Shown here: positions 37,480 through 64,000 of the stretch, one piece after another
Layout of the letters: the number at the start of each line of letters is the position of its first letter
Position numbering within the stretch: the first letter of the stretch is position 1
Origin: Promethearchaeota archaeon
GTDB taxonomy: Archaea > Asgardarchaeota > Lokiarchaeia > Sigyniarchaeales > SOKP01
Direction of reading: 5' to 3'
Assembly (NCBI GenBank): GCA_019058245.1
Contig: JAHPZJ010000013.1
Coordinates: 265,166-329,165 of the forward strand
Length of the DNA stretch: 64,000 nucleotides
Position numbers and translations under genes: made by a program
Notes under the pieces: model-generated
The model's input: only the letters and a program-made list of their open reading frames with translations
Told to the model about the DNA's origin: nothing
The model's database searches: none

Positions 37480-39120
37480 ATGAAGGAAATCACAGAGATT
37501 CTAACAGATTTTTTTGCAATAATGAAAGATGATATTTTAGAATATTATCATCGAAGTCATTCTTATTTAAAAGATTTAATTTTGTATAAAAAACTTGATT
37601 TAAATAGAAAAACTTCTAATGAACGTGAAAAGAATTTATCTTTAAATCTTAAAAAAATGTTAAAAGCAGTTAGAACAGGATTAAATACAATAGGAGTTCC
37701 AATTAATAAATTAAATAAATGCGAAAAGGATTTTATGGAAACTTTAGATAAAAATAGAGCGGAAATCCAAGATTATAACAATTATTTTCAAATTTATCTA
37801 ACGAATTATGTGAATAAAATATTATTTAATATACTGATTGATTATCTCCTTGAAGTGGATACTAAAAAACTTGAAAATGTAAATATATTTGATCTCTTAC
37901 CTCCATATTTTATTTCAAATTTAAATGATTTCAAGAAGAAACATTTTGATACTCCAGAGACTATTAATCTCTTTAAGCGACAAAATTTTGATAATTATAT
38001 TAATTTTTCAGATTCAACTCTAAAATCAGGAGAAGATTCAGAATTAAACATACTGAAACAATTACGAGAAGCAAAACAAGATATTATTGAGACTTTAAAG
38101 TTGCCTCAAAATGAACTGAATACATTAAAGATGGCCCCTCCCCAAGATAAAGCCATTTTAAAAGAAAAAATTTTACCAAGTAAAACGACTATACATCCAG
38201 AACAAGTTTTGCATACTGAATTAATCAGTAATACTTTCCTTGATTACTTTGGACAATTTCCACCGATTAATATTGATATTACAAATCGGTTTATCATTAA
38301 AAAAGACAATTTAATTAAATCAAAAGAATTCAATAAAGACATTTTCGATTTAGAAAATTTATACCATTATATTGCTATACTAAAAATGTTAAATATAAAA
38401 TTTCCTTTTACTAATGGTGAACTTCTTGGAACTGTTAGAGATTACGTAAATGGGAAGATTTTCAGTTCCTCAAAAGAGGATCTACCAGACTCAAAAAATA
38501 TTTTCTATGGTTTAGCTCTTTTTTCAGAATTAAATTTACTAAACAAAACAGATCTTATCGATCTTCAAAAACTTGAAAAATATCTAAAATCGGAAATAGA
38601 TAATTTCATTCCAGAAAAATTAGAATTTAATCTTTATTTAATACTATGTATAAAACTATTAGGAAAAAACTGTAAAATCAAGTTTAATAGAAAATTAATT
38701 TTGGAATTGCTTTTGAAAATAAATTTATCTACAATAGAAGATTTTATACCAAGTTTAGACATTTTTAACTATCTAGCTCTAATAAAATTATTAGATAAAG
38801 ATGTGAGTCTAGAACAATTCGAAATTTTTTTTACTAATGAGCTCAAGAAATTATTAACATCAGATGGCTCAATTAATGATTCAATAACTGAATCAGCAAG
38901 AGCGTTGCTTATATTTGACCTACTCAATTTAAAAGATCGAGAACCTGAATTATGCAATAAATTATTAAATTATATTTTAAATACTACCGATTTTTTCAGT
39001 AATAATAATCTCGATGAGAATTTTAATTGGCAAAATGATAAATTTGGTTTTAAAATCGAATTAGAAATTTTATATTGGGCTCTATTGGGTAGTTCTCAAT
39101 ATATTTCCAAGAATTCTTAA
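37480..39120 (+). CDS. Hypothetical alpha-helical protein, possible prenyltransferase-like repeats in the C-terminal half
   Basis: 546-aa ORF; repeated D/S-x3-4-Y-x-L-A-L-L-x-x-L helices. Confidence 0.65.
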   Translation: MKEITEILTDFFAIMKDDILEYYHRSHSYLKDLILYKKLDLNRKTSNEREKNLSLNLKKMLKAVRTGLNTIGVPINKLNKCEKDFMETLDKNRAEIQDYNNYFQIYLTNYVNKILFNILIDYLLEVDTKKLENVNIFDLLPPYFISNLNDFKKKHFDTPETINLFKRQNFDNYINFSDSTLKSGEDSELNILKQLREAKQDIIETLKLPQNELNTLKMAPPQDKAILKEKILPSKTTIHPEQVLHTELISNTFLDYFGQFPPINIDITNRFIIKKDNLIKSKEFNKDIFDLENLYHYIAILKMLNIKFPFTNGELLGTVRDYVNGKIFSSSKEDLPDSKNIFYGLALFSELNLLNKTDLIDLQKLEKYLKSEIDNFIPEKLEFNLYLILCIKLLGKNCKIKFNRKLILELLLKINLSTIEDFIPSLDIFNYLALIKLLDKDVSLEQFEIFFTNELKKLLTSDGSINDSITESARALLIFDLLNLKDREPELCNKLLNYILNTTDFFSNNNLDENFNWQNDKFGFKIELEILYWALLGSSQYISKNS

Positions 39121-48831: not shown

Positions 48832-50982
48832 TTATTTTTTTATTGTAATTTTAATATCTACAGCACTATAACCTTTCATAAATGATAGTAGAGGATTAAT
48901 ATCTAGTTCAACTATCTCTGGAAAATCTGTTATGAGCTGTGAAAGTCTAAGCATAACATCTATGACTGCTTCAATATCAGATGGAGGTTCACCTCTTACT
49001 CCTTGTAAAAGACTAAAAATTTTTGTATTTTCAATTTGTTGTTTAACGATTTCTCTTGTATATTTATATCCTAATGCAAATGATACATCCTTCATAAAAT
49101 TGGCATAAATTCCTCCCGTTCCAAACATTAATATATTTCCGAAACATGGATCCTGTGACATTCCAATTATTATCTCATTGATTTTTTCTTGGGATTTGAA
49201 ATCAATCATCTCTTGTATTTCTACCCCATAAATCTTTGCATTTTGGGGACCATATTTTTTAGCATTATTGACAATTTGTATATAGGCTTCGAATGCATCT
49301 TGTTCTGTTTCAATATTTAATAAAATACCGCCGACATCTGTTTTATGAATTATTTGCGGACTTACAATTTTCATTACAGTTTTTCCAATTTGAGATTGTA
49401 ATTTCATTGCTTTTCTTGGAGTTTGGGCTAACCTTGATTTTGGCGATTTTATCCCATAGCAATCAAAAATTTCGCTAGTTTCAAAGCTTAATAAAACCGT
49501 TCTATTATCATCTCTTACGTTATCAAATATTTCCTTTACCCTTGCTTTATTTACTTTAAAAGAGGGAACTTCCAACATCTCTAGTGGTATACTATTCAAA
49601 TAGATACGTCGTTTTATCAATGTTTTCAAAGAATGAGCAGCTCTATCTGGGAAATGATAACAAGGAATATGATTTCTTTTTAAATAATCTCTACCTTCAG
49701 AAATATTCTTTCCACCAATAAAAGAACAAACAATAGGTATATCTTTTAAATGAGTGGAAGATATCCTATAAATAAGTTCCGCAACTTCAGAGGGTTTTGT
49801 TTGAGCTTGAGGTGTTACTATTATTAAAGCTCCTTGGGTAGTTATTTCGCCCAAATCTTGATTAGAATTAATTCCAAATATAATTTTCATAGTAAATTCA
49901 TAACGATCTGGGGCAGCATCTCCAACAATATCAATTGGATTAAAAATTGCAGCTTCTAAAGGTAAATTTTCTCTTAGTAAGTGCAAAATTTCTTCTGAAA
50001 AGCTTGAAAACTTTAATCCTTCACGTTCAAATGCATCTGTAGCAACAATTCCAGGACCACCTGCATTAGTAATTATAGCAAAAGAATTTTTTTGAGGAAT
50101 TGGTTGGTAAAGAAAGATTTCTCCATAATCGAAAAGATCTTCTATAGTATTTGCTCTGATTACTCCACATTTTTCAAAAGCTAAATCATACGCTAGATCT
50201 GCTCCTGCTAATGCCCCTGTATGGCTGGATGCGGCTCTAGCTCCTGCTTCACTTACTCCAGATTTTAAAATTACAATTGGTTTTTTTCTTGTTGCCTTTG
50301 GTAAAACTTCTAAGAATCTATCTCCATCCTTAATACTCTCCAAATAACATAAAATAACTTTTGTATTGTCATCATCTGATAGATATTCTATAAAATCTAC
50401 AGCACCTAAATCTGCTTTATTACCTAGACTTATATTACATGAGAATCCAAATGCTTGTGTCATAGAATAATCCATCATCCCCGTAAGCATGGCTCCAGAT
50501 TGTGAAATCATAGCTATCTCCCCGTTTTTAGGTGTTTCTGCAGCAAATGAACCATTATAGTTGAGTCCAATAAATCCTAAGCAATTTGGACCCAAAATTC
50601 TCATATTATATTTCTTCCCAATTTTAATTAGTTCCTCTTCTCTTTTAACTCCTTCCCCGCCAATTTCTTTAAATCCTGCTGAAATGATGATTAATCCTTT
50701 TACACCTTTTTTTCCACACTCTTTAGCAGCTAAATTTACGAATTTACTTGGTATAACAAAAATAGCAACATCAATATCTTCATTAATGTCTAATACAGTT
50801 TTAAAGCATAGAAGTTCGCAGATTTTATTTGATTTAGGATTAATGGGAAAAATTTTTCCTTTATATCCTGAATTAATGATATTTAATAACACAGTATTCC
50901 CAACTTTTCCTTTAGTTCCACTAGCTCCTATTACAGCTATGCTTTTTGGATCGAAGAAAAAAGAGATATCGTTTTTAGCCAT
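48832..50982 (-). CDS. Acetate--CoA ligase (ADP-forming), fused alpha/beta
   Basis: PKSIAVIGAS, GPNCLG, SQSGA, SHTG phospho-His, TNAGGPG, NPIDI, HKTDVGG, ELDINP. Confidence 0.93.
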   Translation of the reverse strand: MAKNDISFFFDPKSIAVIGASGTKGKVGNTVLLNIINSGYKGKIFPINPKSNKICELLCFKTVLDINEDIDVAIFVIPSKFVNLAAKECGKKGVKGLIIISAGFKEIGGEGVKREEELIKIGKKYNMRILGPNCLGFIGLNYNGSFAAETPKNGEIAMISQSGAMLTGMMDYSMTQAFGFSCNISLGNKADLGAVDFIEYLSDDDNTKVILCYLESIKDGDRFLEVLPKATRKKPIVILKSGVSEAGARAASSHTGALAGADLAYDLAFEKCGVIRANTIEDLFDYGEIFLYQPIPQKNSFAIITNAGGPGIVATDAFEREGLKFSSFSEEILHLLRENLPLEAAIFNPIDIVGDAAPDRYEFTMKIIFGINSNQDLGEITTQGALIIVTPQAQTKPSEVAELIYRISSTHLKDIPIVCSFIGGKNISEGRDYLKRNHIPCYHFPDRAAHSLKTLIKRRIYLNSIPLEMLEVPSFKVNKARVKEIFDNVRDDNRTVLLSFETSEIFDCYGIKSPKSRLAQTPRKAMKLQSQIGKTVMKIVSPQIIHKTDVGGILLNIETEQDAFEAYIQIVNNAKKYGPQNAKIYGVEIQEMIDFKSQEKINEIIIGMSQDPCFGNILMFGTGGIYANFMKDVSFALGYKYTREIVKQQIENTKIFSLLQGVRGEPPSDIEAVIDVMLRLSQLITDFPEIVELDINPLLSFMKGYSAVDIKITIKK

Positions 50983-53457: not shown

Positions 53458-54203
53458 TTATAATATTTAATATCCTTTCTTGAAAGATAATCTGCTAAAT
53501 AAAGAGGTTCAGGTTGTCTATGATTTATTGTAGTTGCTAAACAAATCTTTAAGGCTAGATTAAGTGAAATTTTATAACCCTCACTAATAAAAACAGGCTT
53601 ATTTCCACTATTCAAGCATACAGCATATCCTAATAAATCATTTGATTCTTCTTTACCCAAGTATTTGGGGTTTTTTGCCCATATTGAAGATTTATTTCCT
53701 TTAACTCTCTCAATTTTGTGCCAATCTGAAAATCCAATAAATGGGTTTTTTGCGATTCCTATGCTAGGAATATCTAAAGCATAACCTAAATGTACGGCTT
53801 CACCGAATCTTCTAGGATGAATTTTACCATGTCCATCACACATTATTAAATCAGGTTTATTTGGAACTTTTGAAATCACCTTAGCTAATAATTTACATTC
53901 TCTAAATCCTAAAAAACTTGGTTTATAAGGGAATTTAATAGGATCTTTGGTTGTTAAAAAATGACTTTCTTTTAAATTTTCTTTTAAATTCCAAATAACG
54001 GCACAAGCAATACCATATTCATTATTATTATCTTTAAAATATGAGATATCAACTCCAGCAATTGTATTAATATGCTTTATGCTAGTAAAATATTCATTCT
54101 TTGAGATTTTTTTCATTAAATTTTGATATTTAATTTGGATTGCTTCTGCCCGCTCAAATGAATAATCATCTCTTATTAATTCTTGAATAATGGTCATTCT
54201 CAA
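53454..54203 (-). CDS. nfi: Endonuclease V
   Basis: AGVDISY, FPYKPSFLGFRE, DGHGKIHPRRFG, IGIAK, QPEPLYLAD. Confidence 0.93.
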   Translation of the reverse strand: MRMTIIQELIRDDYSFERAEAIQIKYQNLMKKISKNEYFTSIKHINTIAGVDISYFKDNNNEYGIACAVIWNLKENLKESHFLTTKDPIKFPYKPSFLGFRECKLLAKVISKVPNKPDLIMCDGHGKIHPRRFGEAVHLGYALDIPSIGIAKNPFIGFSDWHKIERVKGNKSSIWAKNPKYLGKEESNDLLGYAVCLNSGNKPVFISEGYKISLNLALKICLATTINHRQPEPLYLADYLSRKDIKYYN

Positions 54204-54362
54204 AGAAATATTTTATATCTCTTATTTATTATTAAATTTAGACAGTTTATTATTATTATAGTTTAGAAATTTGCTCCAAATTTTTTAAATTTATAAAAAT
54301 AACATTTAATTTATCTCGAATTCTTATAAATTTATAATCTTAATTAATTTGGTTTTCTTTTT

Positions 54363-55166
54363 ATGAAATTAGCTGTATCAGGTAAAGGAGGAGTAGGAAA
54401 AACCTTAGTTGCTGGAATTTTAGCAAGAATGTTTGCAAAGGATGGCGTTAAAGTTCTAGCAATTGATAATGATTCTGCAATGAATCTGAGTTATACTTTA
54501 GGGATTGATGAAAAAACCAAAGAAAATATCATCCCAATTAAGGAAATGAAATCAATGATAGAAAAAAGGACTCTTGTAAAAGGTGGGGGTCCTGGAGTTT
54601 ATAATATAAACCCAGAAGTAGCTGACATACCCGATAGATATAAAGTATCCGGTCCAGACGGATTACAATTATTGGTTTTAGGAGGAATTGAAGAACCGGC
54701 AACAGGATGTTTATGCCCTGAAAATGCATTAATAAGAACTTTATTATATAACTTATTTGTTAAAAGAGATGAAGTCATAATTGTTGATTTTGAAGCAGGC
54801 ATTGAGCATTTAGGACGAGGGACAGCAAAAGGAATTGATTTAATGTTGGTAATAACAGAGCCCTCTCAAAAATCTTTAGATCTCTGTAAAAAAATAATAG
54901 ATTTATCAAAAAAATTGGGAGTAATAAACATTTATTTAATAGCCAATAAAATAACTGATGAAAGTCAAACAGAAATAATAAATCAAAAGATAAAAAATTG
55001 GGAAGTTCCACTTTATCATTCGATTCCTTTTGACCCTAATATAGCTAAAGCTGATTTAGAAGGTAAATCTCCAATTGATTTTAACTCAAATTCAAAAGGG
55101 ATTTTATCAATAAAAAATCTTTATGAGAAATTAAAAAAATTAAAAAAAGAATTATTTGATATATAA
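54363..55166 (+). CDS. cooC: CooC-type nickel-insertion ATPase
   Basis: SGKGGVGKT, GCLCPEN, DFEAGIEHLGRG. Confidence 0.9.
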   Translation: MKLAVSGKGGVGKTLVAGILARMFAKDGVKVLAIDNDSAMNLSYTLGIDEKTKENIIPIKEMKSMIEKRTLVKGGGPGVYNINPEVADIPDRYKVSGPDGLQLLVLGGIEEPATGCLCPENALIRTLLYNLFVKRDEVIIVDFEAGIEHLGRGTAKGIDLMLVITEPSQKSLDLCKKIIDLSKKLGVINIYLIANKITDESQTEIINQKIKNWEVPLYHSIPFDPNIAKADLEGKSPIDFNSNSKGILSIKNLYEKLKKLKKELFDI

Positions 55167-55197
55167 AGTACAAAAATTACCAGTTTAAACTCATTAA

Positions 55198-55734
55198 TTA
55201 AATAAAGGATTTATCGAATATACCTGAAAAAACAGGAATTATATAAAAAGATAATATTAATCCAATAAAAAGATGGATACTCCAATAAAGATATAGTGGT
55301 TTTCCAGAATTCAGTGTCTTATCGTTATTAGTTTCCCTTTCCTTATATTTATTAATAAAAAAATAAATAGTCACTAAAGCAATAATACAAATGGGTTGTA
55401 AGAATAAAAAAGAGACGTAAACTTGAATAGGAGGATCCCCCCCAAAACTCATATTTAAATGAGTTCCAATTATAATTGTATTAATTAATATTGTTGAAAT
55501 TATATAGGAAAGAGGATACATACCAATTATGAAAGCATATTCTAATTTTTCGCGATATAATTGAATCATAACAACTATTACTTCAAGAAGAATTATCAAA
55601 TTAATTAATGTCAAATAACTAAAAGTTGTCGGATAATAAAATAACTGTGAAATTACAAATATTATATAAGAAACCGCATAACCTAATAAAATTATATAAA
55701 AGTTCTCTTTTTTGAGATTTTGATTTTCTTGCAT
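55198..55734 (-). CDS. Hypothetical membrane protein (about 5 TM)
   Basis: Multiple hydrophobic segments. Confidence 0.68.
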   Translation of the reverse strand: MQENQNLKKENFYIILLGYAVSYIIFVISQLFYYPTTFSYLTLINLIILLEVIVVMIQLYREKLEYAFIIGMYPLSYIISTILINTIIIGTHLNMSFGGDPPIQVYVSFLFLQPICIIALVTIYFFINKYKERETNNDKTLNSGKPLYLYWSIHLFIGLILSFYIIPVFSGIFDKSFI

Positions 55735-55912
55735 TTTAATCTTCTATAATATGTAATTTAATTGGATTAATATATCTTTAAAAATATTGAATTTCAATAT
55801 AAAATTTACTTCGTTTCTCAATTAAACTTTTTTTTTTTAAGATTTAAAATGTTAAATAAAACGATTAAATAATATATACTATATAAGAATAAGAAAGAAT
55901 GACAAAATATTT

Positions 55913-56155
55913 TTAAACTATATCTGTAAAATCTAAATTCTGATCTTCTGCAATTTCCTTCCATTGTTCTATCGCTTCTAATGCGTCTTTTTCATCCATC
56001 ATCTCTATGGCATAACCGGCATGAACCACTACATATTTACCTATTTTTGGATTTTGAATTAATGCAATAATTACATTTTGTTTAATCCCATCAAAATCTA
56101 CTAAGGCAGAATTCTGATTGATTTCTAATATTTTACCAGGAATTGCTAAACACAT
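55913..56155 (-). CDS. hypC: Hydrogenase maturation chaperone HypC
   Basis: MCLAIPG and YVVVHAGYA. Confidence 0.95.
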   Translation of the reverse strand: MCLAIPGKILEINQNSALVDFDGIKQNVIIALIQNPKIGKYVVVHAGYAIEMMDEKDALEAIEQWKEIAEDQNLDFTDIV

Positions 56156-56258
56156 ATAAAATCTCTAATTGAAGCTTAATGTGTAATTTCTATAATTCTT
56201 TTAGATAAATAAAATTAATCCTTTTTATAAGAAAATTTTACAGATTTTATAACAAAAG

Positions 56259-57062
56259 CTAAGAGTTTGATGGTTTACCGGAGTAAAAATTGATTAAATC
56301 ATCCAACCAATTGAAAATTTCTACTTTAGTTAAATTATCAATATTAAACTTTAATCTTTCTAATTCTCTAACAATATTTCTTATATCTAAAGGAACTGAT
56401 TTTTGACAGAGTTCAAACATAAATTCATTGCTTTTAGATACTAAAGATTTTATTTCAGAATCCATAGGATCAAACATGGGCGTGTTATCGATTTCGTCCA
56501 CGCTTCTATCAAAATCTACAAGAAGATTTATTAAATCAAAAAGTCTTCCTGTTTCATTTCCCTTAAATGCTTTGTTAAATTGAAAGTAGTATCCTTTGTA
56601 ATCATCAATAGGGATTAATTCTGAATATTGGTTTGCTATTTTGATCACAGATTTGAAATGTTTATAAAGATTTGATGGAGACCATGAATATATATCAAAG
56701 CTCGTCTCTACTTCGTTACTTCGTATATCTAAATTAAATTTATGTTCATCTTTAAAATAACCAAATGGAATAATAACAAAATCTAATGAGTTTGTAGAAT
56801 TGTTTCTTAAATTAAAATTCAAATCATCAATAGTATATGCTTGATCAATTGAATGCTTATATAAATCAAATCTAACTTTTTTAATATCTGGTTTGTACAT
56901 ATAGAATATTAACCCTTCAAATCCTTGAAGACTAAATTCTATTGAAAACTCGACATTTTTTTTACTTTTCGCCTCATTATTAAATCTTGCATTAAGAAAT
57001 AGATGATAATAATTTTCAAGATGCTGAAAAAACCATGGAGTATCACGTTTTAAATTAAACAT
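56259..57062 (-). CDS. Hypothetical protein
   Basis: 267-aa ORF with upstream GGAG; no motif recognised. Confidence 0.68.
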   Translation of the reverse strand: MFNLKRDTPWFFQHLENYYHLFLNARFNNEAKSKKNVEFSIEFSLQGFEGLIFYMYKPDIKKVRFDLYKHSIDQAYTIDDLNFNLRNNSTNSLDFVIIPFGYFKDEHKFNLDIRSNEVETSFDIYSWSPSNLYKHFKSVIKIANQYSELIPIDDYKGYYFQFNKAFKGNETGRLFDLINLLVDFDRSVDEIDNTPMFDPMDSEIKSLVSKSNEFMFELCQKSVPLDIRNIVRELERLKFNIDNLTKVEIFNWLDDLINFYSGKPSNS

Positions 57063-57264
57063 TATTATATTAACTCCCTATTCCTTTTATTAACTTCCAT
57101 TTGATATTCCCTTAGATAAATACAAACAAGTGAATGAATTTTACATAATTATAAAATTTCAATTTATAAAATAATTTATTCTTATTTAAATCTTACAATC
57201 ATAATTCGAATGTTAAAGAAAATAAAAGAAAATAAAAAAAATAAAAAAATTTATTGATAGTAGC

Positions 57265-58146
57265 TTAGAGATTTTCAATAGCTGTATTTCGTCTAGTTCG
57301 ATGGTTTTTTAAACCAATCTCCTCAGAATTTACACCCATTGCTAAAGCTAATAATTCAGTTACATATAATACTGGAATATTATATTCAGATTCAAATTTC
57401 TTTGAAAGATTTCGCTGTTCACCATCCAACCGTTGAAAACACGCTGGACAATTTACAACGATACAATTAGCGCCAGCTTTTTTAATCGAATCAAGTTTTT
57501 GCTTCAATATTGCATCTCCATGTTCTGGAAAAGGTCCAGCAACAGCATTTCCACAACAAAGTCCTAATTCTTCGTAATCAACAACATTAGCTCCCGAAGC
57601 AGCAACAATTTCTTTCAAATTTTTTGGACGTAGAGGATCATCAGAATCCATCCATTCAACAGGTCTCATGTAATGACAACCTGGGTGGCAAGCAACCTTT
57701 AGATCACTCATCTGCTTTGTAATTCCTCCTTTTATTGCATTTAATTTTGATAGTAAAACATCAACAAAATGTTTTACATCAATGGAACCTTTATATTCCT
57801 TTCCAATCTTGGCCAATTCTTTGTTTATGGCCTCTTTTTTATTGGAATCATGCTTTAATTGATGTTGTACTCCACGAAGTGTATTAGCACAACCATTACA
57901 AAGCGAAATTATATCTTTACCTTCAGCTTCAGCCAAACATAAATTTCGAGCACCTAAAGCTAACCAAGTGGTATTATCAAAACTTTTAACTCCAGTAGGA
58001 TCTGGACAACATGCAAAAGGAGCTTGTGAAGTTTGCACTCCAATTTTATCAAAAACTTTTCTGGAAGCTGCTTCAATAAACGGAATTCTGTTTCCAATAG
58101 TACACCCTTCAAACATTTTATATTCTGTCATTTTGTTTTCCTCCAT
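57265..58146 (-). CDS. hdrB: Heterodisulfide reductase subunit B
   Basis: Two CCG domains: FEGC...CCP...CNGC and HPGCH...CCG...CPAC. Confidence 0.93.
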   Translation of the reverse strand: MEENKMTEYKMFEGCTIGNRIPFIEAASRKVFDKIGVQTSQAPFACCPDPTGVKSFDNTTWLALGARNLCLAEAEGKDIISLCNGCANTLRGVQHQLKHDSNKKEAINKELAKIGKEYKGSIDVKHFVDVLLSKLNAIKGGITKQMSDLKVACHPGCHYMRPVEWMDSDDPLRPKNLKEIVAASGANVVDYEELGLCCGNAVAGPFPEHGDAILKQKLDSIKKAGANCIVVNCPACFQRLDGEQRNLSKKFESEYNIPVLYVTELLALAMGVNSEEIGLKNHRTRRNTAIENL

Positions 58147-58670
58147 TATAATTTTTTATCAGCACCTACTGCTTTTAATAAAGTTTGAACTTCATTGACA
58201 TCTGGTGTAACAACACCAGGTAAGCCTAATTGCTCACGTCTTCTCTCGATAGCTGGTTGAGATGGAATTGCTTTACCACTTTCAAATACTGTTTTTGCTT
58301 GAGCTACAATATTATCAGGTGCCAGTCCTGCTCCTGTTGTAACGTTTTTTGCTAATGCTATTATTTCCGTAACCTCAATCGCCTGAGGACAAACAGTATC
58401 ACAAGTATCGCATACTGTACAACCCCATGGTATGATTGCAGATTTTGTGCCTGCTAACATCATTACTACATCTTTATATCCTAAAAGAGTTCCTAAAACA
58501 ATTAATCTAGGATCAAAAACGTTTTCATAAAAAGGATTAGCTACAGAGGCAACAGGACAATTATCCGTACATCTATTACATTGATAACAGTATTTGATTT
58601 TATCAGATCCAATATGAACGTCCATTATTAATTTCCTAAATTCAAAATCTATACCTACAGGTAATGCCAT
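58146..58670 (-). CDS. hdrC: Heterodisulfide reductase subunit C
   Basis: CYQCNRCTDNCP and CTVCDTCDTVCP; stop overlaps the hdrB start (TAATG). Confidence 0.92.
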   Translation of the reverse strand: MALPVGIDFEFRKLIMDVHIGSDKIKYCYQCNRCTDNCPVASVANPFYENVFDPRLIVLGTLLGYKDVVMMLAGTKSAIIPWGCTVCDTCDTVCPQAIEVTEIIALAKNVTTGAGLAPDNIVAQAKTVFESGKAIPSQPAIERRREQLGLPGVVTPDVNEVQTLLKAVGADKKL

Positions 58671-58720
58671 TTTTTTCACGTTTTTTTTGAGTTTTTTTCA
58701 TTTCATTTTTACTTATTTTT

Positions 58721-58795
58721 TGTTGGTTTTAACCCATGCAAGGGCAGTCATATCCAATCTATTATTTTTATTGGATAATTCATCCTAAACCAACA
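58721..58795 (-). promoter_or_regulatory. Eukaryote-type SECIS element of vhuU
   Basis: Minus-strand UGUUGGUUUagg-AUGAA-uUAUCCAAU-AAAAAuaauag-AUUGGAUA-UGAC...AAACCAACA: AUGA/GA core, 8-bp helix II, apical A-run, 9-bp outer helix. Confidence 0.8.
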
Positions 58796-58929
58796 TTTAG
58801 CTCACGAGAGTAAATTTCTTTACCCCTCTCATCAACAACAGTGATGTGAGCGGCACATGATAGTCAACAATCATAACATCGAACTATCATTTCCAAGACA
58901 TTTACTACTCCTTCTGGTATATCACTCAT
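58780..58929 (-). CDS. vhuU: Selenocysteine-containing [NiFeSe] hydrogenase small peptide VhuU (in-frame UGA at 58864-58866)
   Basis: Manual translation MSDIPEGVVNVLEMIVRCYDC-U-LSCAAHITVVDERGKEIYSRELNVGLG; supplies the C-terminal Ni-binding motif missing from the upstream large subunit. Confidence 0.92.
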
Positions 58930-58966
58930 TTTTTTTATTCACGCTCTATATTAATTTTGAATTAAT

Positions 58967-60274
58967 CTATTTAATCCATGGATCTGGTAATTTTAATCCG
59001 TCCAAGGCTTTATCTTCAAATACTTGCTTCGCTGAGTGCATTAAAGACTTTTCGATTCCTGCGATGTTATGATTTGTAGCAACTAAAAGATTCAACTTCT
59101 TACAAATACCTTCAGCATCAGACCAAATGTTATATAGGAGAAGTCCTCGTGGAGCTTCTGTAACTCCAACACCATTTCCTTCTCTTGGTTCAACATCGAG
59201 TGTTTTGCAATCAGGATTCACGATATCAGGATCTTTGAGTAATGTAGCAATCATCTCAATTGATTCTACCATTTCAATTATTCTCGCCCAGTGATATGCA
59301 AAAGTATGGTGTATTACATTAGTACCTATTTTTTCTCTCATTGCCTTTAACGCATCATCTGCTAATGGTGTAGCCATTTTGTCAGCACAATTAATCATTG
59401 CTAAAGTATTCGCTCGATAAATACCCTCAGGGTATCCCGCTGGCTTATAGTACATATGAGTTGCATAAGAATGTTTAGGAATATGTTCTCCAAGTGCTTC
59501 CAGATAATTTTGAGGTTTATAATCAAATTTCTCTCCGGTTGGAGAAACAATTCGGATATCACCATCATAAATATCATGAACACCATTTTTTGTTAACCCT
59601 ACATAATAAGTAGGCACAACACCGACATTAGCTACAACATCCCAATAATCTTCTACAACTTTTAAAGCAATATCAACCGTTTTCTTTGTAAATTCTATTT
59701 GTTCATCAATTACTTTTAAGAATTTATCACGTACGTCTTCATCTAAAGGCTTTTTCATGCCTCCAACTATCGCAGATATTGGATGAACAGCTTTACCACC
59801 TACTGCAGCACATAATTTCTGACCGAAATCCATCATCTTTAACGCCATAGCTCCAACATCAGGCATTTTATTTATTACATGAACAACATTTCTTAAAGCC
59901 GGATCTGCGAAAGGTCCTAATAAGAAATCAGGAGCCGCAAGAGCATAGAAATGAATAACATGTGATGAATATTGTTTCGCATTGATTAATAACTGTCGTA
60001 ATTTATATGCGGGGGTAGGTATCTGAACACCCCAAGCGTCTTCTACTGCTTTAGTGGGTGTTAGATGATGAGGAATTGGACAAATACCACAAATTCTTGG
60101 AGTTATTCGAGGTACATGTTCGCAATAACGTCCCTCGACAAATTTCTCAAAAAATCTTGTTGATTGGATATTGAATTGAACATCCTTTACTGTACCATCA
60201 TCTCCAAGTACTACCCTCAACCCACCATGACCCTCTAATCGGGTAACAGGTTCAACTTCTATTTCTTTTACCAT
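58967..60274 (-). CDS. vhuA: F420-non-reducing (group 3c) hydrogenase large subunit, split type lacking the C-terminal motif
   Basis: EPVTRLEGHG, RICGICPIPH L1 motif, EAPRG, LVAT; ends at PDPWIK without DPCxxC. Confidence 0.92.
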   Translation of the reverse strand: MVKEIEVEPVTRLEGHGGLRVVLGDDGTVKDVQFNIQSTRFFEKFVEGRYCEHVPRITPRICGICPIPHHLTPTKAVEDAWGVQIPTPAYKLRQLLINAKQYSSHVIHFYALAAPDFLLGPFADPALRNVVHVINKMPDVGAMALKMMDFGQKLCAAVGGKAVHPISAIVGGMKKPLDEDVRDKFLKVIDEQIEFTKKTVDIALKVVEDYWDVVANVGVVPTYYVGLTKNGVHDIYDGDIRIVSPTGEKFDYKPQNYLEALGEHIPKHSYATHMYYKPAGYPEGIYRANTLAMINCADKMATPLADDALKAMREKIGTNVIHHTFAYHWARIIEMVESIEMIATLLKDPDIVNPDCKTLDVEPREGNGVGVTEAPRGLLLYNIWSDAEGICKKLNLLVATNHNIAGIEKSLMHSAKQVFEDKALDGLKLPDPWIK

Positions 60275-60277
60275 TTA

Positions 60278-61603
60278 TTATGCACCTCCTTTTCTTGATG
60301 CTAATGTAAATTTCTCAAAAGTACCAATAGGATCTTTGACTTGGGAAAGCAATTCCTCTTTAGATAAGCTTATGTTAAATCCTTTCAGTACTGTATCAGC
60401 AAACCTCTCTGCTTGATTAACACCCCATTTGGTCTGTCCATAACAACCCGTACATGGAGCATTAACTTTAATGCATAAGGCACCACAGCCAGCTTGAGTT
60501 ACAGGACCCATACAAATATAACCTTGTTCAAGTAAACAATCTTCCATATTTGGTATTCCTTCGTAATCTCGCTTAACCCTTGTCATTGTAGATTTACTTC
60601 CAATGATTCTTGGACATGTATCACAGACATTTGAAATTTCATGGAAATCAGGATTATCTCTTAAGAAGCTCATTAAATTCGAAGCAATTTCCTCAGTTGT
60701 AGGGGGAAGATTTGCTAATTGTGTCTCTGGAGCACCATGTTTCTTTATTTGTTTTAAAATATCACCAGCAAGATCAAAACCAGCCATTAAAGGAAGATTT
60801 AAAAACAGTGGTAAAAATTCAAAAATACTCTTTTTATCACCTGAACTTATGGCTCCAAGATCTTTTGTCATACTATTTAATTTTTCAGCTCTAACACCTA
60901 CTGTCTTAGCCGGTCCCATACAACCTAAACATGGAGATCCATTATTTGGACATTTCAATGAACATCCAATGCTTGTAATTGGTCCGAAACACAATTTACC
61001 TGCATCTAATAGACATCCAGATTGATTTAATGCACAATCATTACAAAATGCCAAATCATTCATAGGGAATGGCTTTTGACCGAGTAAAAACCCAATTGCA
61101 CTATATATTTGTTGTGATTTTGGAGGACACCCCGACATATATGCATCCACTTTGATTACCCTATCTACGGGTACAATCTTGGATTCAAAACCAGGAACAT
61201 GTTCCGTTGGTTCTCCACCACTTTCATCTGCAATACTCTCTACTTGTGAGAATTTTCTGTCAATTAACTCTTGTATATCCCATTGGTTAGCTAATCCATG
61301 TACATTTCCATAACATGAACAACTACCAAAAGCTACAATAATAGCACATTTTTGACGCATTAATTTTGTACCTTCAACATCTTGTTTAGTTCGAAGGCTC
61401 CCTTCTATAAATCCAACAACAATTTCACCATCTTCTCTAGCTTCCAACGAATTATACTTGAAATCAACTACTGCTGGCCAATAGACAATCTCTAGCGCTG
61501 GTAAGACTGGCAAAAGGGCTAGATGTAAATCAATTAAACTCTGATGACAACCCCAACAGTCACTATTTTGCCAAAATGCAACCTTAACAGGTATAGAGAT
61601 CAC
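60278..61603 (-). CDS. vhuG: F420-non-reducing hydrogenase small subunit with duplicated C-terminal Fe-S module
   Basis: CWGC, FIEGS, AFGSCSCYG, GCPP, then two CxxC...CLL..G..C.GP.T..GC...C......C.GC.G modules. Confidence 0.88.
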   Translation of the reverse strand: MISIPVKVAFWQNSDCWGCHQSLIDLHLALLPVLPALEIVYWPAVVDFKYNSLEAREDGEIVVGFIEGSLRTKQDVEGTKLMRQKCAIIVAFGSCSCYGNVHGLANQWDIQELIDRKFSQVESIADESGGEPTEHVPGFESKIVPVDRVIKVDAYMSGCPPKSQQIYSAIGFLLGQKPFPMNDLAFCNDCALNQSGCLLDAGKLCFGPITSIGCSLKCPNNGSPCLGCMGPAKTVGVRAEKLNSMTKDLGAISSGDKKSIFEFLPLFLNLPLMAGFDLAGDILKQIKKHGAPETQLANLPPTTEEIASNLMSFLRDNPDFHEISNVCDTCPRIIGSKSTMTRVKRDYEGIPNMEDCLLEQGYICMGPVTQAGCGALCIKVNAPCTGCYGQTKWGVNQAERFADTVLKGFNISLSKEELLSQVKDPIGTFEKFTLASRKGGA

Positions 61604-61707
61604 CTCTTTTAATTTTAGCAGTTTTTACAGCCATTTTATTTTTCACTTTTGTTGTTTTTTTTTGATTTTAAATTATCTAATTTGTTATAAAAATAATTAG
61701 TTGAGAT

Positions 61708-61788
61708 AGTTTATTCATAACTTTATTAAAAACTTCTGATTAAGTTTATGATTAGACAGATTTATTTAAATTCAAGTTTATGAATAAA
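61708..61788. promoter_or_regulatory. Phased repeated motif in the hydrogenase/Lrp divergent promoter
   Basis: AAGTTTATGA at 61742 and 61774 (32 bp apart) plus a near-inverted copy TTATTCATAACTT at 61711. Confidence 0.4.
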
Positions 61789-62420
61789 TATTCAAAATAC
61801 TTAGTGAGTTAATTTGAATCGTTTTTTTAAATACGAAATTGATAGTACGTTTTAATAATTAAAAAATGATTTTCTGTCAAATTGTCATAAAAATATAATC
61901 TAATTTTATTATTTTTTTAAAAAATATATTTTCTGTTTTGCTTATTAAAATTAAACTATACGTCCTTCCTTAATCAATTCAGCTATTATTTGTCGATCAA
62001 CATTATCTAATAGCATTTTTAAATACTGAGATTAATTTTATTAATTATAACTTTATTGCAAGTTTTTAAAAATTGTTGATTATAAAAATTCAATTAGCTT
62101 ATATCTTTAATAAATAAATTAGTATATTCCTCTTTTATATTAAAAAAGCCATCGCTTCTTAAACTATATTGAAATAAATCGGTAATACATAGTTTATATT
62201 GATTATTATTAATGATTTGTAACAATTTTCATTACTTCATTTAAAAATTAAGTATATCATTATTATTTTTATTGTCATACAAAATTTCAACTTTCAATTT
62301 GAAATTTTTTATAGAATTTTGTTGCAGAATGAAACTAGAAGGCAATAAACTGTTTAAAGCTTCCTAAATCCTTATAAGGAATCAATTTTTTTTTATATAA
62401 GCATTTCTAATAATATAATT

Positions 62421-62984
62421 ATGCCTTTAGATCAAATTGATAGACAAATTCTAAAATTATTATTTGAAAATGGTCGAGAAAGCTTAAGCTCATTGAGTTT
62501 AAACGTTTTAAAATCAAACAAAGAAACAATGAGTCATGCAGGTATTGCAAAAAGAATTTCAAAATTGGAGGATGAGCGTATACTTAAAATACAAGGTAAT
62601 ATTGGTATTAAGAATTTAAACTATTTTGCCGCATTTATCTTGATTGAAATGAAAAATTATGATGAACTACAAAATATAATTGAAGCTTATTCAGAATGTC
62701 CAAGAGTTTTTCTGCTGGCACAAGTTACAGGTCAATATAATTTGATATTAGGGATTATCGGGCAAAATGTGGATGTTTTACATCGATATATTAATTATTG
62801 TGGTCCTACAAATAAAAAAGGAATTTTACACTCTATGGTAATGTTCACATCCGAAATAATAGTACCTCAATTTCTTCCCCTTAATCTCTTTAGTGGTATA
62901 AGTAAGGAAGATAAATGTAGCAACATTTGTTGTGATTGTGCAGCATTTCTTGATAAAAAATGCAGTGGATGTGGTAACTTTTAA
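62421..62984 (+). CDS. Lrp/AsnC transcriptional regulator with C-terminal Cys cluster
   Basis: LDQIDRQILKLL..NGR wHTH, VTGQYNL RAM domain, CSNICCDC...CSGC tail. Confidence 0.88.
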   Translation: MPLDQIDRQILKLLFENGRESLSSLSLNVLKSNKETMSHAGIAKRISKLEDERILKIQGNIGIKNLNYFAAFILIEMKNYDELQNIIEAYSECPRVFLLAQVTGQYNLILGIIGQNVDVLHRYINYCGPTNKKGILHSMVMFTSEIIVPQFLPLNLFSGISKEDKCSNICCDCAAFLDKKCSGCGNF

Positions 62985-63307
62985 AATTAGGACTATATCT
63001 TAGTTTATATAACATCAACTAAATATTTTGGGTAATTTCTTTCTAAAACCTCATATAGAATAATAAATAGGATTTTTGTATATAAGTTTGTACCATTTTT
63101 GGACAAATTAAATAGCAATAAAAGAATGAAAGCGTTGTTTCATATTGAAACTTTATTTTCTATATTGTTGAAATTTGAAACAAGACTTATTTCTGAGGTT
63201 TAAATTATCCAATTTAAGAAATGCTTATAAGTAAGCTATTTCTTTTAAGTTTAAAGTAATCTTTTTAAAAAAAATAAATATCTTTAAATTTAAAAGTGAT
63301 TCTGAAA

Positions 63308-63970
63308 ATGAACAAGAAAATTTTGAGATTGTTCATTATATTCTTCTTTGTTTTTGCAACTATAGGAACTGTTAGTGCTTGGCCTGGATATATGACAGAA
63401 TGGGACGAAACTGATCATGGATCATGTCATGCGGGAACCTATACTGAGTCTACAGGTACATTATCTGCAACAATTACTCCTGTAAATACCACAACTGTTA
63501 CACTCGATCCTGGAACTACCTTTAATGTTACCCTTGATATTACAGGATTTACTGCGGCAGCAAATATGCACGTTTTAGTTGGTATATCTGCTAAAATTAG
63601 TGATAATCATGATTTTTTTTTTGGTGTTCATAATGATACAGGAGAGCTTGGGGCAACTGCCTTTGAGATTGGATTAGACGCCTCTGGAAATGCTAATAAC
63701 ACAGTAACTATTATTACATTCGCTCCTACTACTGGTGGTTCTCATACATTAACAATTGTGGCTGTTGAAGGAGGAGAATCATTCTCTACTTATCACCCAT
63801 TTAATTACATTAAAACTGAAATAACAGTTACAGTTAAATCTACAAGTAGTGGTGGTATTCCAGGATACAGTATTTTCTTCATTATTTCAGCAGGGATTAT
63901 AACTACTGTACCAATAGTATTAATTATACTTCGTAAAAGAAAAAATCATAAAGGAGTTGAGTTCAATTGA
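63308..63970 (+). CDS. Secreted Ig/Reeler-like protein with IPGY (Loki-CTERM/PGF-CTERM-like) sorting tail
   Basis: Signal peptide; Thr-rich beta domain; SSGGIPGY + TM + RKRK; ATG at 63308 (track start GTG 63296). Confidence 0.8.
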   Translation: MNKKILRLFIIFFFVFATIGTVSAWPGYMTEWDETDHGSCHAGTYTESTGTLSATITPVNTTTVTLDPGTTFNVTLDITGFTAAANMHVLVGISAKISDNHDFFFGVHNDTGELGATAFEIGLDASGNANNTVTIITFAPTTGGSHTLTIVAVEGGESFSTYHPFNYIKTEITVTVKSTSSGGIPGYSIFFIISAGIITTVPIVLIILRKRKNHKGVEFN

Positions 63971-64000
63971 AGAAGAATAAAATGATTGTGTTAGCTGTAA

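What the first reader, a model, noticed from the sequence alone, without database searches (positions are those of the whole stretch)
58721..58795. Eukaryote-type SECIS whose AUGA core is the gene's own stop codon
Seen: the terminal codons GGA-UGA supply the AUGA of the core (58780-58783). Then come UAUCCAAU/AUUGGAUA (8 bp), an apical AAAAA, and the 3' UGAC. The outer helix UGUUGGUUU/AAACCAACA begins inside the coding sequence, and a small extra CCC/GGG hairpin lies on the 3' side. The Sec UGA is about 80 nt upstream. A backup UAA lies four codons after the stop, and every other gene of the operon ends in UAA or UAG. Inference: one short cistron uses UGA three ways (Sec, stop, RNA structure). 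Distance to the SECIS would decide Sec versus stop. A terminating ribosome must melt the SECIS, which could limit recoding inside a polycistronic mRNA.
Basis: partly seen in the sequence, partly recalled or inferred. Interest (0 to 1): 0.8.

Follow-up and report, generated by a model that had tools for sequence, protein, structure and literature searches.

The report
Loki SECIS sharing vhuU's stop codon
The RNA signal that lets this Loki-type Asgard archaeon read UGA as selenocysteine in a tiny hydrogenase gene really does use that gene's own UGA stop codon as part of its core. The same thing was published in 2016 for the same gene in the same group of archaea.

Summary
On the minus strand, vhuU (58929-58780, 49 codons) has Sec UGA at codon 22. 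It ends GGA-UGA, and that A-UGA (58783-58780) is the AUGA core of a three-armed hairpin (58795-58721).

The element is a real lokiSECIS:
- A covariance model built only from four other SECIS elements of the same genome hits it full length (37 bits, E 7e-6).
- In 54 distinct vhuU orthologues, a structure-blind alignment gives the same three helices. 90% of cells pair, 16 of 21 pairs show compensatory changes, and 0 of 500 shuffles do as well.
- A Cys paralogue ends in UAA and has no such fold.

The shared UGA is kept throughout the window's family. It is replaced in other Lokiarchaeia lineages by UAA/UAG with the SECIS 8-32 nt downstream, and in three close relatives by a UAG just before AUGA. 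So the overlap is stable but dispensable.

This is already known. Mariotti et al. 2016 state it for Lokiarchaeota VhuU.1, and Huang et al. 2024 call such overlaps frequent. The "backup UAA" and the "other genes end UAA/UAG" points carry no weight. Sec insertion itself is untested. Another report of this scan had already noted the third arm of this SECIS type elsewhere in this genome.

The parts
60278..61603 (-). vhuG-like hydrogenase small subunit, first gene of the operon; ends UAA
   Evidence: Pfam Oxidored_q6, E 2.5e-21; stop codon read
58967..60274 (-). vhuA-like [NiFe(Se)] hydrogenase large subunit without its C-terminal metal-binding piece; ends UAG
   Evidence: Pfam NiFeSe_Hases, E 3e-28, N-terminal part only
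58780..58929 (-). vhuU: 49 codons plus UGA stop; the split-off C-terminal piece of the large subunit
   Evidence: Translation. Aligns to residues 425-452 of MvhA (5odc_F) and to a 27-aa VhuU chain (9sfi_M). Found with one in-frame TGA in 135 of 161 genomes of the class
58864..58866 (-). Sec codon UGA (codon 22), at the first Cys position of the DPCxxCxxH-type motif
   Evidence: Conserved as TGA in nearly all orthologues
58721..58795 (-). whole three-armed lokiSECIS
   Evidence: MFE fold; covariance-model hit at 37.1 bits, E 6.6e-6; covariation
58787..58795 (-). outer helix, 5' strand, inside the vhuU coding sequence (codons for N-V-G-L)
   Evidence: Synonymous third-position changes (GGU to GGC, GUU to GUA) are compensated on the 3' strand: pair 11-83 UA 33 / CG 12, pair 8-86 UA 42 / AU 3
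58780..58783 (-). AUGA core; its UGA (58782-58780) is the vhuU stop codon
   Evidence: AUGA at the stop in 27 of the 30 nearest orthologues and 60 of 67 vhuA-linked loci
58770..58778 (-). helix II, 5' strand (8 Watson-Crick pairs plus a U.U at the core end). One extra A (58779) lies between AUGA and the stem
   Evidence: All 9 pairs show compensatory changes
58759..58769 (-). 11-nt apical loop AAAAAUAAUAG (five leading A, terminal AG)
   Evidence: 30 of 54 orthologues have an 11-nt loop starting AAAAA and ending AG. Matches the lokiSECIS description
58750..58758 (-). helix II, 3' strand
58748..58749 (-). 3' GA of the core, able to form tandem G.A/A.G with the GA of AUGA
   Evidence: GA in 36 and AA in 11 of 54 orthologues
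58732..58745 (-). third arm: small G+C hairpin with a UUGCAU loop on the 3' side of the junction
   Evidence: Present in all six SECIS found in this genome and in vhuU orthologues across the class
58721..58729 (-). outer helix, 3' strand
58146..58670 (-). hdrC-like ferredoxin gene; its ATG lies 50 nt after the SECIS; ends UAA
   Evidence: Pfam Fer4_8
57265..58146 (-). hdrB-like gene (CCG domains), last gene of the operon; ends UAA
   Evidence: Pfam CCG, E 1.8e-26

Best explanation
The hairpin at 58795-58721 (minus strand) is the selenocysteine insertion element of vhuU in a Lokiarchaeia genome. It is the published lokiSECIS type: a lower helix, then an AUGA...GA kink-turn-like core, a 9-position upper stem, and an 11-nt A-rich loop. 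It also carries a small third arm.

Inferred mechanism:
- When a ribosome has the Sec UGA (58866-58864) in its A site, the element starts 71 nt further on. It is therefore folded and can recruit the Sec-specific elongation factor with Sec-tRNA, through a still unknown binding protein.
- The ribosome then translates 27 more codons and has to unwind the lower helix and the core.
- When the second UGA reaches the A site, no SECIS exists and the codon is read as stop.

The same three bases therefore serve as stop codon and as the G.A-forming part of the core. What is shown here: the structure, its conservation and its link to Sec-containing vhuU. What is inferred: Sec insertion, the binding partner, and the melt-then-terminate order.
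For: 1. The fold is the MFE and centroid structure, z -3.6.
2. A model built from four non-vhuU SECIS of the same genome hits 58719-58797(-) over its full length at 37.1 bits, E 6.6e-6. It also finds the equivalent element in 45 orthologous loci.
3. A structure-blind MAFFT alignment of 54 distinct orthologues gives the same three helices with RNAalifold.
4. On that alignment 90.2% of cells pair, 16 of 21 pairs have changes on both sides, 0 of 500 shuffles reach the observed values, and slid registers pair at only 27-51%.
5. vhuU keeps its in-frame TGA in 135 of 161 genomes of the class.
6. The Cys paralogue in a congeneric genome (L077) ends GGU-UAA, has no model hit and folds at only -7.5 kcal/mol.
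7. SepSecS is present in the genome.
8. The Sec aligns with the first Cys of the C-terminal metal site of solved hydrogenases.
9. UGA is the vhuU stop in 57 of the 69 Sec-type vhuU loci sampled, against 14% of long ORFs genome-wide.
10. Published description of the same arrangement: PMC4989117 and PMC11227280.
Against: No experiment exists for any lokiSECIS; function is inferred from comparative data only. tRNA-Sec was not found above the Rfam cut-off in this 76%-complete assembly. Relative to the published 9-bp consensus, this copy has one extra base after AUGA and a U.U at the first stem position. Eukaryotic SECIS models do not recognise it. Occasional Sec insertion at the terminal UGA cannot be excluded.
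Confidence: 0.88

Rival explanations
1. The terminal UGA is itself decoded as Sec. VhuU would then carry a second Sec and end at the next in-frame stop (here U-I-I-Q, then UAA).
For: A SECIS is nearby and an in-frame UAA follows after three codons in this window. The C-terminal stretch after the His is expected, from general knowledge of [NiFe] hydrogenase maturation, to be cleaved off, so an extension would be harmless.
Against: The next in-frame stop lies anywhere from 1 to 32 codons away in orthologues, and at 4 codons in only 17 of 67. What is conserved downstream is base pairing, not codons. Relatives with UAA or UAG end at the same ...G-x-G residue. A ribosome at this codon has already unwound the lower helix and the core (inference).
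Confidence: 0.06
2. Besides or instead of Sec insertion, the structure mainly acts between cistrons: as an mRNA processing or stability element, or as a device coupling vhuU termination to hdrC initiation 50 nt downstream.
For: It lies between two cistrons of one operon. Termination inside a stable structure could affect downstream initiation (inference).
Against: The same three-armed fold follows unrelated UGA-containing genes elsewhere in the genome, including last genes. The Cys paralogue in the same vhuU-hdrC context lacks it. The sense strand after it is A-rich and has no U tract, so it is not terminator-like.
Confidence: 0.04
3. It is a chance hairpin in AT-rich DNA; the AUGA/stop coincidence has no meaning.
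For: The genome is 29% G+C. AUGA is the commonest context of UGA stops (68 of 159).
Against: Compensatory changes in 16 of 21 pairs, with 0 of 500 shuffles as good. An independent covariance model hits it. It is conserved over a whole class.
Confidence: 0.01

Closest known systems
lokiSECIS of Lokiarchaeota VhuU.1 (Mariotti et al. 2016, PMC4989117); type I eSECIS-like structure of Asgard frhA/vhuU genes (Huang et al. 2024, PMC11227280)
   Same: Same gene, same clade and same architecture: AUGA, a 9-position stem, an 11-nt loop starting AAAAA and ending AG, then GA or AA. The paper states that in VhuU.1 the AUGA motif also works as the UGA stop codon. Huang et al. say such overlaps are frequent, and they report [U/C]GG_C[C/U][A/G] pairs in the lower stem of frhA elements, which fits UGG/CCA here.
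   Different: This copy has GA, not the AA reported for VhuU, and one extra base after AUGA. In the family the extra base always goes with GA (24 of 24). The third arm is not mentioned in the text of either paper; I could not see their figures or supplements.
Eukaryotic type I SECIS (Rfam RF00031 SECIS_1)
   Same: [quoted passage not shown]
   Different: No Rfam hit at E<=10. The upper stem has 9 positions, shorter than in eukaryotic SECIS elements (Mariotti). A third arm sits on the 3' side of the junction. No SBP2 is found in Asgard archaea. The mRNA is polycistronic.
Methanococcales/Methanopyrus archaeal SECIS (GAA_A bulge type)
   Same: It serves the orthologous vhuU gene and lies just behind the coding sequence. 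The UGA-SECIS distance is similar: 88 nt in M. maripaludis fruA (PMC9622424) against 71 nt here. In M. maripaludis the SECIS can directly follow the coding region without loss of function.
   Different: No GAA_A pattern is present in 58600-58870, and the consensus is different.
SECIS inside an open reading frame: fowlpox virus GPx4 and designed in-frame SECIS (Mix et al. 2007, PMC1802603); bacterial SECIS
   Same: These show that a SECIS which ribosomes must unwind on every passage can still support Sec insertion.
   Different: There the whole element is coding. Here only the lower-helix 5' strand and the core overlap the reading frame, and the core supplies the stop.
Kink-turn, and three-way 'k-junction' variants of it (recalled from the literature, not tested here)
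   Same: The tandem G.A/A.G potential next to a regular helix, with a third helix leaving the non-bulged strand, resembles what I recall of k-junctions.
   Different: Five unpaired bases lie between the lower helix and the G of the core, instead of three. No structural or protein-binding data exist.

Membership tests
lokiSECIS (Mariotti 2016) | AUGA directly 5' of the upper stem | tested here: met
   AUGA at 58783-58780. One extra A separates it from the 9-position stem, a subtype shared by 25 of 54 orthologues.
lokiSECIS (Mariotti 2016) | 9-bp upper stem | tested here: met
   8 Watson-Crick pairs plus a U.U at the core-proximal position. The same position is A-U in 33 of 54 orthologues, and all 9 pairs covary.
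lokiSECIS (Mariotti 2016) | 11-nt apical loop, first five bases A, last base G preceded by A | tested here: met
   AAAAAUAAUAG; the commonest form among orthologues.
lokiSECIS (Mariotti 2016) | GA (AA in VhuU) directly 3' of the stem | tested here: met
   GA at 58749-58748.
lokiSECIS (Mariotti 2016) | Lies at the end of a gene with an in-frame UGA aligned to Cys in homologues | tested here: met
   vhuU codon 22 aligns with the first Cys of the DPCxxCxxH-type motif of MvhA and Frh.
lokiSECIS (Mariotti 2016) | Scores with a sequence-and-structure model of other lokiSECIS | tested here: met
   Model R1, built from four non-vhuU elements of this genome: 37.1 bits, E 6.6e-6, full length.
lokiSECIS (Mariotti 2016) | Directs Sec insertion | not testable with these tools
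   No experimental test of any lokiSECIS is reported in the papers read.
Eukaryotic SECIS (Rfam SECIS_1) | Match to the curated covariance model | tested here: not met
   No SECIS family hit at E<=10 in 54000-64000. This agrees with published failures of SECISearch3 on these elements.
Methanococcales-type archaeal SECIS | Two stems separated by a GAA_A bulge | tested here: not met
   A scan with the pattern published by Huang et al. gave 0 hits in 58600-58870.
Bacterial SECIS | Hairpin immediately 3' of the Sec UGA | tested here: not met
   58870-58796 folds no better than shuffles (z -1.3).
Kink-turn bound by L7Ae-family proteins | Tandem sheared G.A pairs next to a 3-nt bulge; protein binding | not testable with these tools
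   The sequence allows G.A/A.G pairs (58781-58780 with 58749-58748). Geometry and binding are unknown.

The most novel reading that the evidence does not exclude
Two things go beyond the text of the papers I could read. (1) The Lokiarchaeial SECIS is a three-way junction. A short G+C hairpin with a GCAA-like loop leaves the 3' strand between the GA of the core and the lower helix. It is present in all six elements found in this genome and in vhuU elements across the class, so it may be a required part of the recognition surface. (2) The stop/core overlap is a movable feature: shared UGA, UAG abutting AUGA, or UAA/UAG 8-32 nt upstream of the element, all with the Sec codon kept. Nature has thus already run the 'separate stop' experiment, and the overlap looks like a neutral or compaction-driven state rather than a regulatory device.
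Probability: 0.4. Interest if true: 0.4.

Novelty: already known. Interest (0 to 1): 0.2.

Why it matters
Lokiarchaeial SECIS elements are the proposed bridge between archaeal and eukaryotic selenocysteine decoding. A UGA that means Sec at one place and stop 84 nt later in the same short cistron, while also forming the RNA core, illustrates decoding by position. That point is already in the literature (2016, 2024), so this locus adds another instance, not a discovery. The useful additions here are: a quantitative covariation test of all three helices; evidence that coding and pairing constraints coexist in the last codons; a map of natural variants showing the overlap is dispensable; and a warning that the proposed UGA-to-UAA swap would be confounded.

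Tried and rejected
- An Rfam scan at E<=10 over 54000-64000 found no SECIS family, only two weak unrelated hits.
- My first regex scan of the genome missed the element because greedy matching returned one parse per start. A rewritten explicit enumeration fixed this.
- MAFFT misaligned the C17 vhuD element (12-nt loop), so I left it out of the model seed. Model R1 did not recover it with default filters.
- R1 gave weak hits at window 16295-16359, 50072-50148 and 37595-37650 (15-20 bits, E 0.08-0.9). The one alignment shown (16295-16359) has no AUGA, and I treat all three as noise.
- aragorn's tRNA-SeC call has a 2.9-kb 'intron' and is an artefact. The Rfam tRNA-Sec model found only sub-threshold hits that coincide with aragorn's tRNA-Gly and tRNA-Ser calls.
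- There is no bacterial-type hairpin after the Sec UGA and no GAA_A-type SECIS.
- The 'backup UAA' and the 'other genes avoid UGA' points were tested and found uninformative.
- The supplement of Mariotti et al. is not held, so I could not check whether their alignments include the third arm.

Full report
**What is there.** The minus strand of 57265-61603 carries an operon of five genes. They are vhuG (Oxidored_q6), vhuA (NiFeSe_Hases, N-terminal part only), a 49-codon vhuU, an hdrC-like ferredoxin gene and an hdrB-like CCG gene. vhuU starts at 58929 and has UGA at codon 22 (58866-58864) in the motif D-C-U-L-S-C-A-A-H. It aligns with the last about 28 residues of solved MvhA and Frh large subunits and with a 27-residue VhuU chain. 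The UGA falls on the first Cys of the C-terminal metal site. The gene ends GGA-UGA at 58785-58780.

**The observation.**
- the outer helix, 58795-58787 paired with 58729-58721;
- AGG, then AUGA at 58783-58780;
- one extra A;
- a stem of eight Watson-Crick pairs plus a U.U;
- the 11-nt loop AAAAAUAAUAG;
- UGAC on the 3' side;
- a small G+C hairpin at 58745-58732.

This fold is both the minimum-free-energy and the centroid structure, at -21 kcal/mol, z -3.6. The two UGAs are 84 nt apart. The Sec UGA is 71 nt from the first base of the outer helix. The hdrC ATG follows 50 nt after the element.

**Is it a SECIS?** Rfam has no hit, eukaryotic SECIS included. This matches published experience with these elements. 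I scanned the whole genome (3.09 Mb, 29% G+C) for the published lokiSECIS signature. Besides the vhuU element I found five more: two behind vhuD genes with several in-frame UGAs, two in tandem on C27, and one behind a small UGA-containing ORF on C13. All six fold on their own into the same three-armed shape. I built a covariance model from four of them, leaving vhuU out. It hits 58719-58797(-) over its full length at 37.1 bits, E 6.6e-6. That is an independent test, because the model never saw a vhuU element.

**Orthologues.** vhuU with one in-frame TGA occurs in 135 of 161 genomes of the class. The nearest named relatives are Promethearchaeota/Promethearchaeia, the current NCBI names for the Loki lineage. 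SepSecS is present in the genome. tRNA-Sec was not found above threshold in this 76%-complete assembly.

I aligned 54 distinct vhuU 3' ends with MAFFT, which knows nothing of structure. RNAalifold returned the same three helices. Counting the full 21-pair structure on that alignment gives these results:

| Measure | Result |
|---|---|
| Cells paired | 90.2% |
| Pairs with changes on both sides | 16 of 21 |
| Shuffles reaching the observed values | 0 of 500 |
| Pairing when the register is slid | 27-51% |

The 5' strand of the outer helix is coding. Synonymous third-position changes there (GGU to GGC, GUU to GUA) are matched by the complementary change on the 3' strand: pair 11-83 is UA 33 / CG 12, and pair 8-86 is UA 42 / AU 3. 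A Cys paralogue of vhuU in a genome of the same genus ends GGU-UAA. It gets no model hit, and its downstream region folds at only -7.5 kcal/mol.

**The shared UGA.**
- All 30 nearest orthologues end in UGA at this place: 27 as AUGA and 3 as UUGA.
- In a wider sample of 40 loci, 27 share the UGA (26 AUGA, 1 CUGA). These include members of four other families of the class. One of them takes the A from CAA instead of GGA.
- Twelve other Sec-containing vhuU genes in that sample end in UAA or UAG. A three-armed element begins 8-32 nt further on in the ten that have a recognisable AUGA.
- Among 67 vhuA-linked loci, 62 end in UGA. Three close relatives have UUA-UAG placed just before an intact AUGA.

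The overlap is therefore stable in the window's family, recurs elsewhere, and is not required for a Sec-containing vhuU. UGA ends only 14% of long ORFs in this genome, so its dominance in vhuU is explained by the core, not by stop-codon preference.

**Details that do not hold up as evidence.** The in-frame UAA four codons after the stop comes from the stem ending in U followed by the A-rich loop. It is at that distance in 17 of 67 orthologues, and the next stop otherwise lies 1 to 32 codons away. With 86% of stops being UAA or UAG, four other operon genes all avoiding UGA is expected about 55% of the time.

**Mechanism.** Shown here: a conserved, covarying three-way junction with an AUGA...GA core, tied to Sec-containing vhuU. 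Inferred: it recruits the Sec-specific elongation factor while the ribosome sits at UGA-22, when the element is still 71 nt ahead and folded. The ribosome then unwinds the outer helix and core over the last codons, so the second UGA meets release factor. This is the argument of Mariotti et al.. Two published findings fit it. In M. maripaludis a SECIS may directly follow the coding region, with a natural spacing of 88 nt in fruA. In-frame SECIS elements also function in animal cells. Whether repeated melting limits Sec insertion in polysomes is speculation. The natural variants with a separate stop suggest any such cost is small.

**Comparison and novelty.** Mariotti et al. 2016 write that in VhuU.1 the overlap is so extensive that the AUGA motif also works as the stop codon. 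Huang et al. 2024 state that UGA stops of Lokiarchaeial selenoprotein genes often overlap the AUGA motif, and they describe lower-stem pairs that fit this element. So the finding is already known, and this is another copy.

- the subtype with one extra base after AUGA always carries GA, while the others carry AA or GA;
- the range of stop placements described above;
- the third arm, which none of the texts I could read mention.

I saw the third arm. I then found that an earlier report of this scan on another part of this genome (e1-5570553) had already noted it.

Noticed in passing
window 58732-58745 (-); also L004, L005, L006, L007 and the vhuU orthologue loci L009-L076: A third arm sits between the core GA and the lower helix: a short G+C hairpin, often with a GCAA-type loop. 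It is present in all six SECIS elements found in this genome and in vhuU elements across the class, including lineages where the stem sequence differs (CCCC/GGGG against CUCUU/AAGAG). It is not mentioned in the text of the papers read.
   Followed up: partly
L110, L117, L124, L134, L136, L154, L156 (about 2480-2760): In several relatives a vhuA that is 85-89% identical is followed directly by hdrC, with no vhuU and no SECIS. At that locus the large subunit has no C-terminal metal-binding piece next to it.
   Followed up: no
L077 (G076:C96:5014-5957): A Cys-type vhuU paralogue (D-C-C-L-S-C-S-A-H) in a genome of the same genus ends GGU-UAA and lacks any SECIS-like fold. It serves as a natural negative control.
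   Followed up: yes
L099, L105, L128: Three close relatives end vhuU one codon early with UAG placed one or two bases before an intact AUGA core. They are natural 'separate stop' variants.
   Followed up: partly
alignment A7, columns 20 and 54-55: An extra base after AUGA always goes with a 3' GA (24 of 24). Elements without it carry AA (11) or GA (12).
   Followed up: partly
G000 whole genome: SepSecS is present (371 bits), but no tRNA-Sec reaches the Rfam cut-off. The best hits fall on genes that aragorn calls tRNA-Gly and tRNA-Ser. The assembly is 76% complete.
   Followed up: partly
G000:C13:146100-146400 (-), locus L004: A lokiSECIS lies 15 nt behind a small ORF with an in-frame UGA in G-G-U-G-C after a hydrophobic stretch. 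It is not one of the five published Loki selenoprotein families, as far as I checked.
   Followed up: no
window 61640-62420: About 800 nt of very AT-rich sequence without a long ORF lies upstream of vhuG, between it and a divergent gene.
   Followed up: no
window 55197-55249 (+): Weak Rfam match to RAGATH-30 (25.7 bits against a gathering score of 59.5, E 0.18). Probably noise.
   Followed up: no
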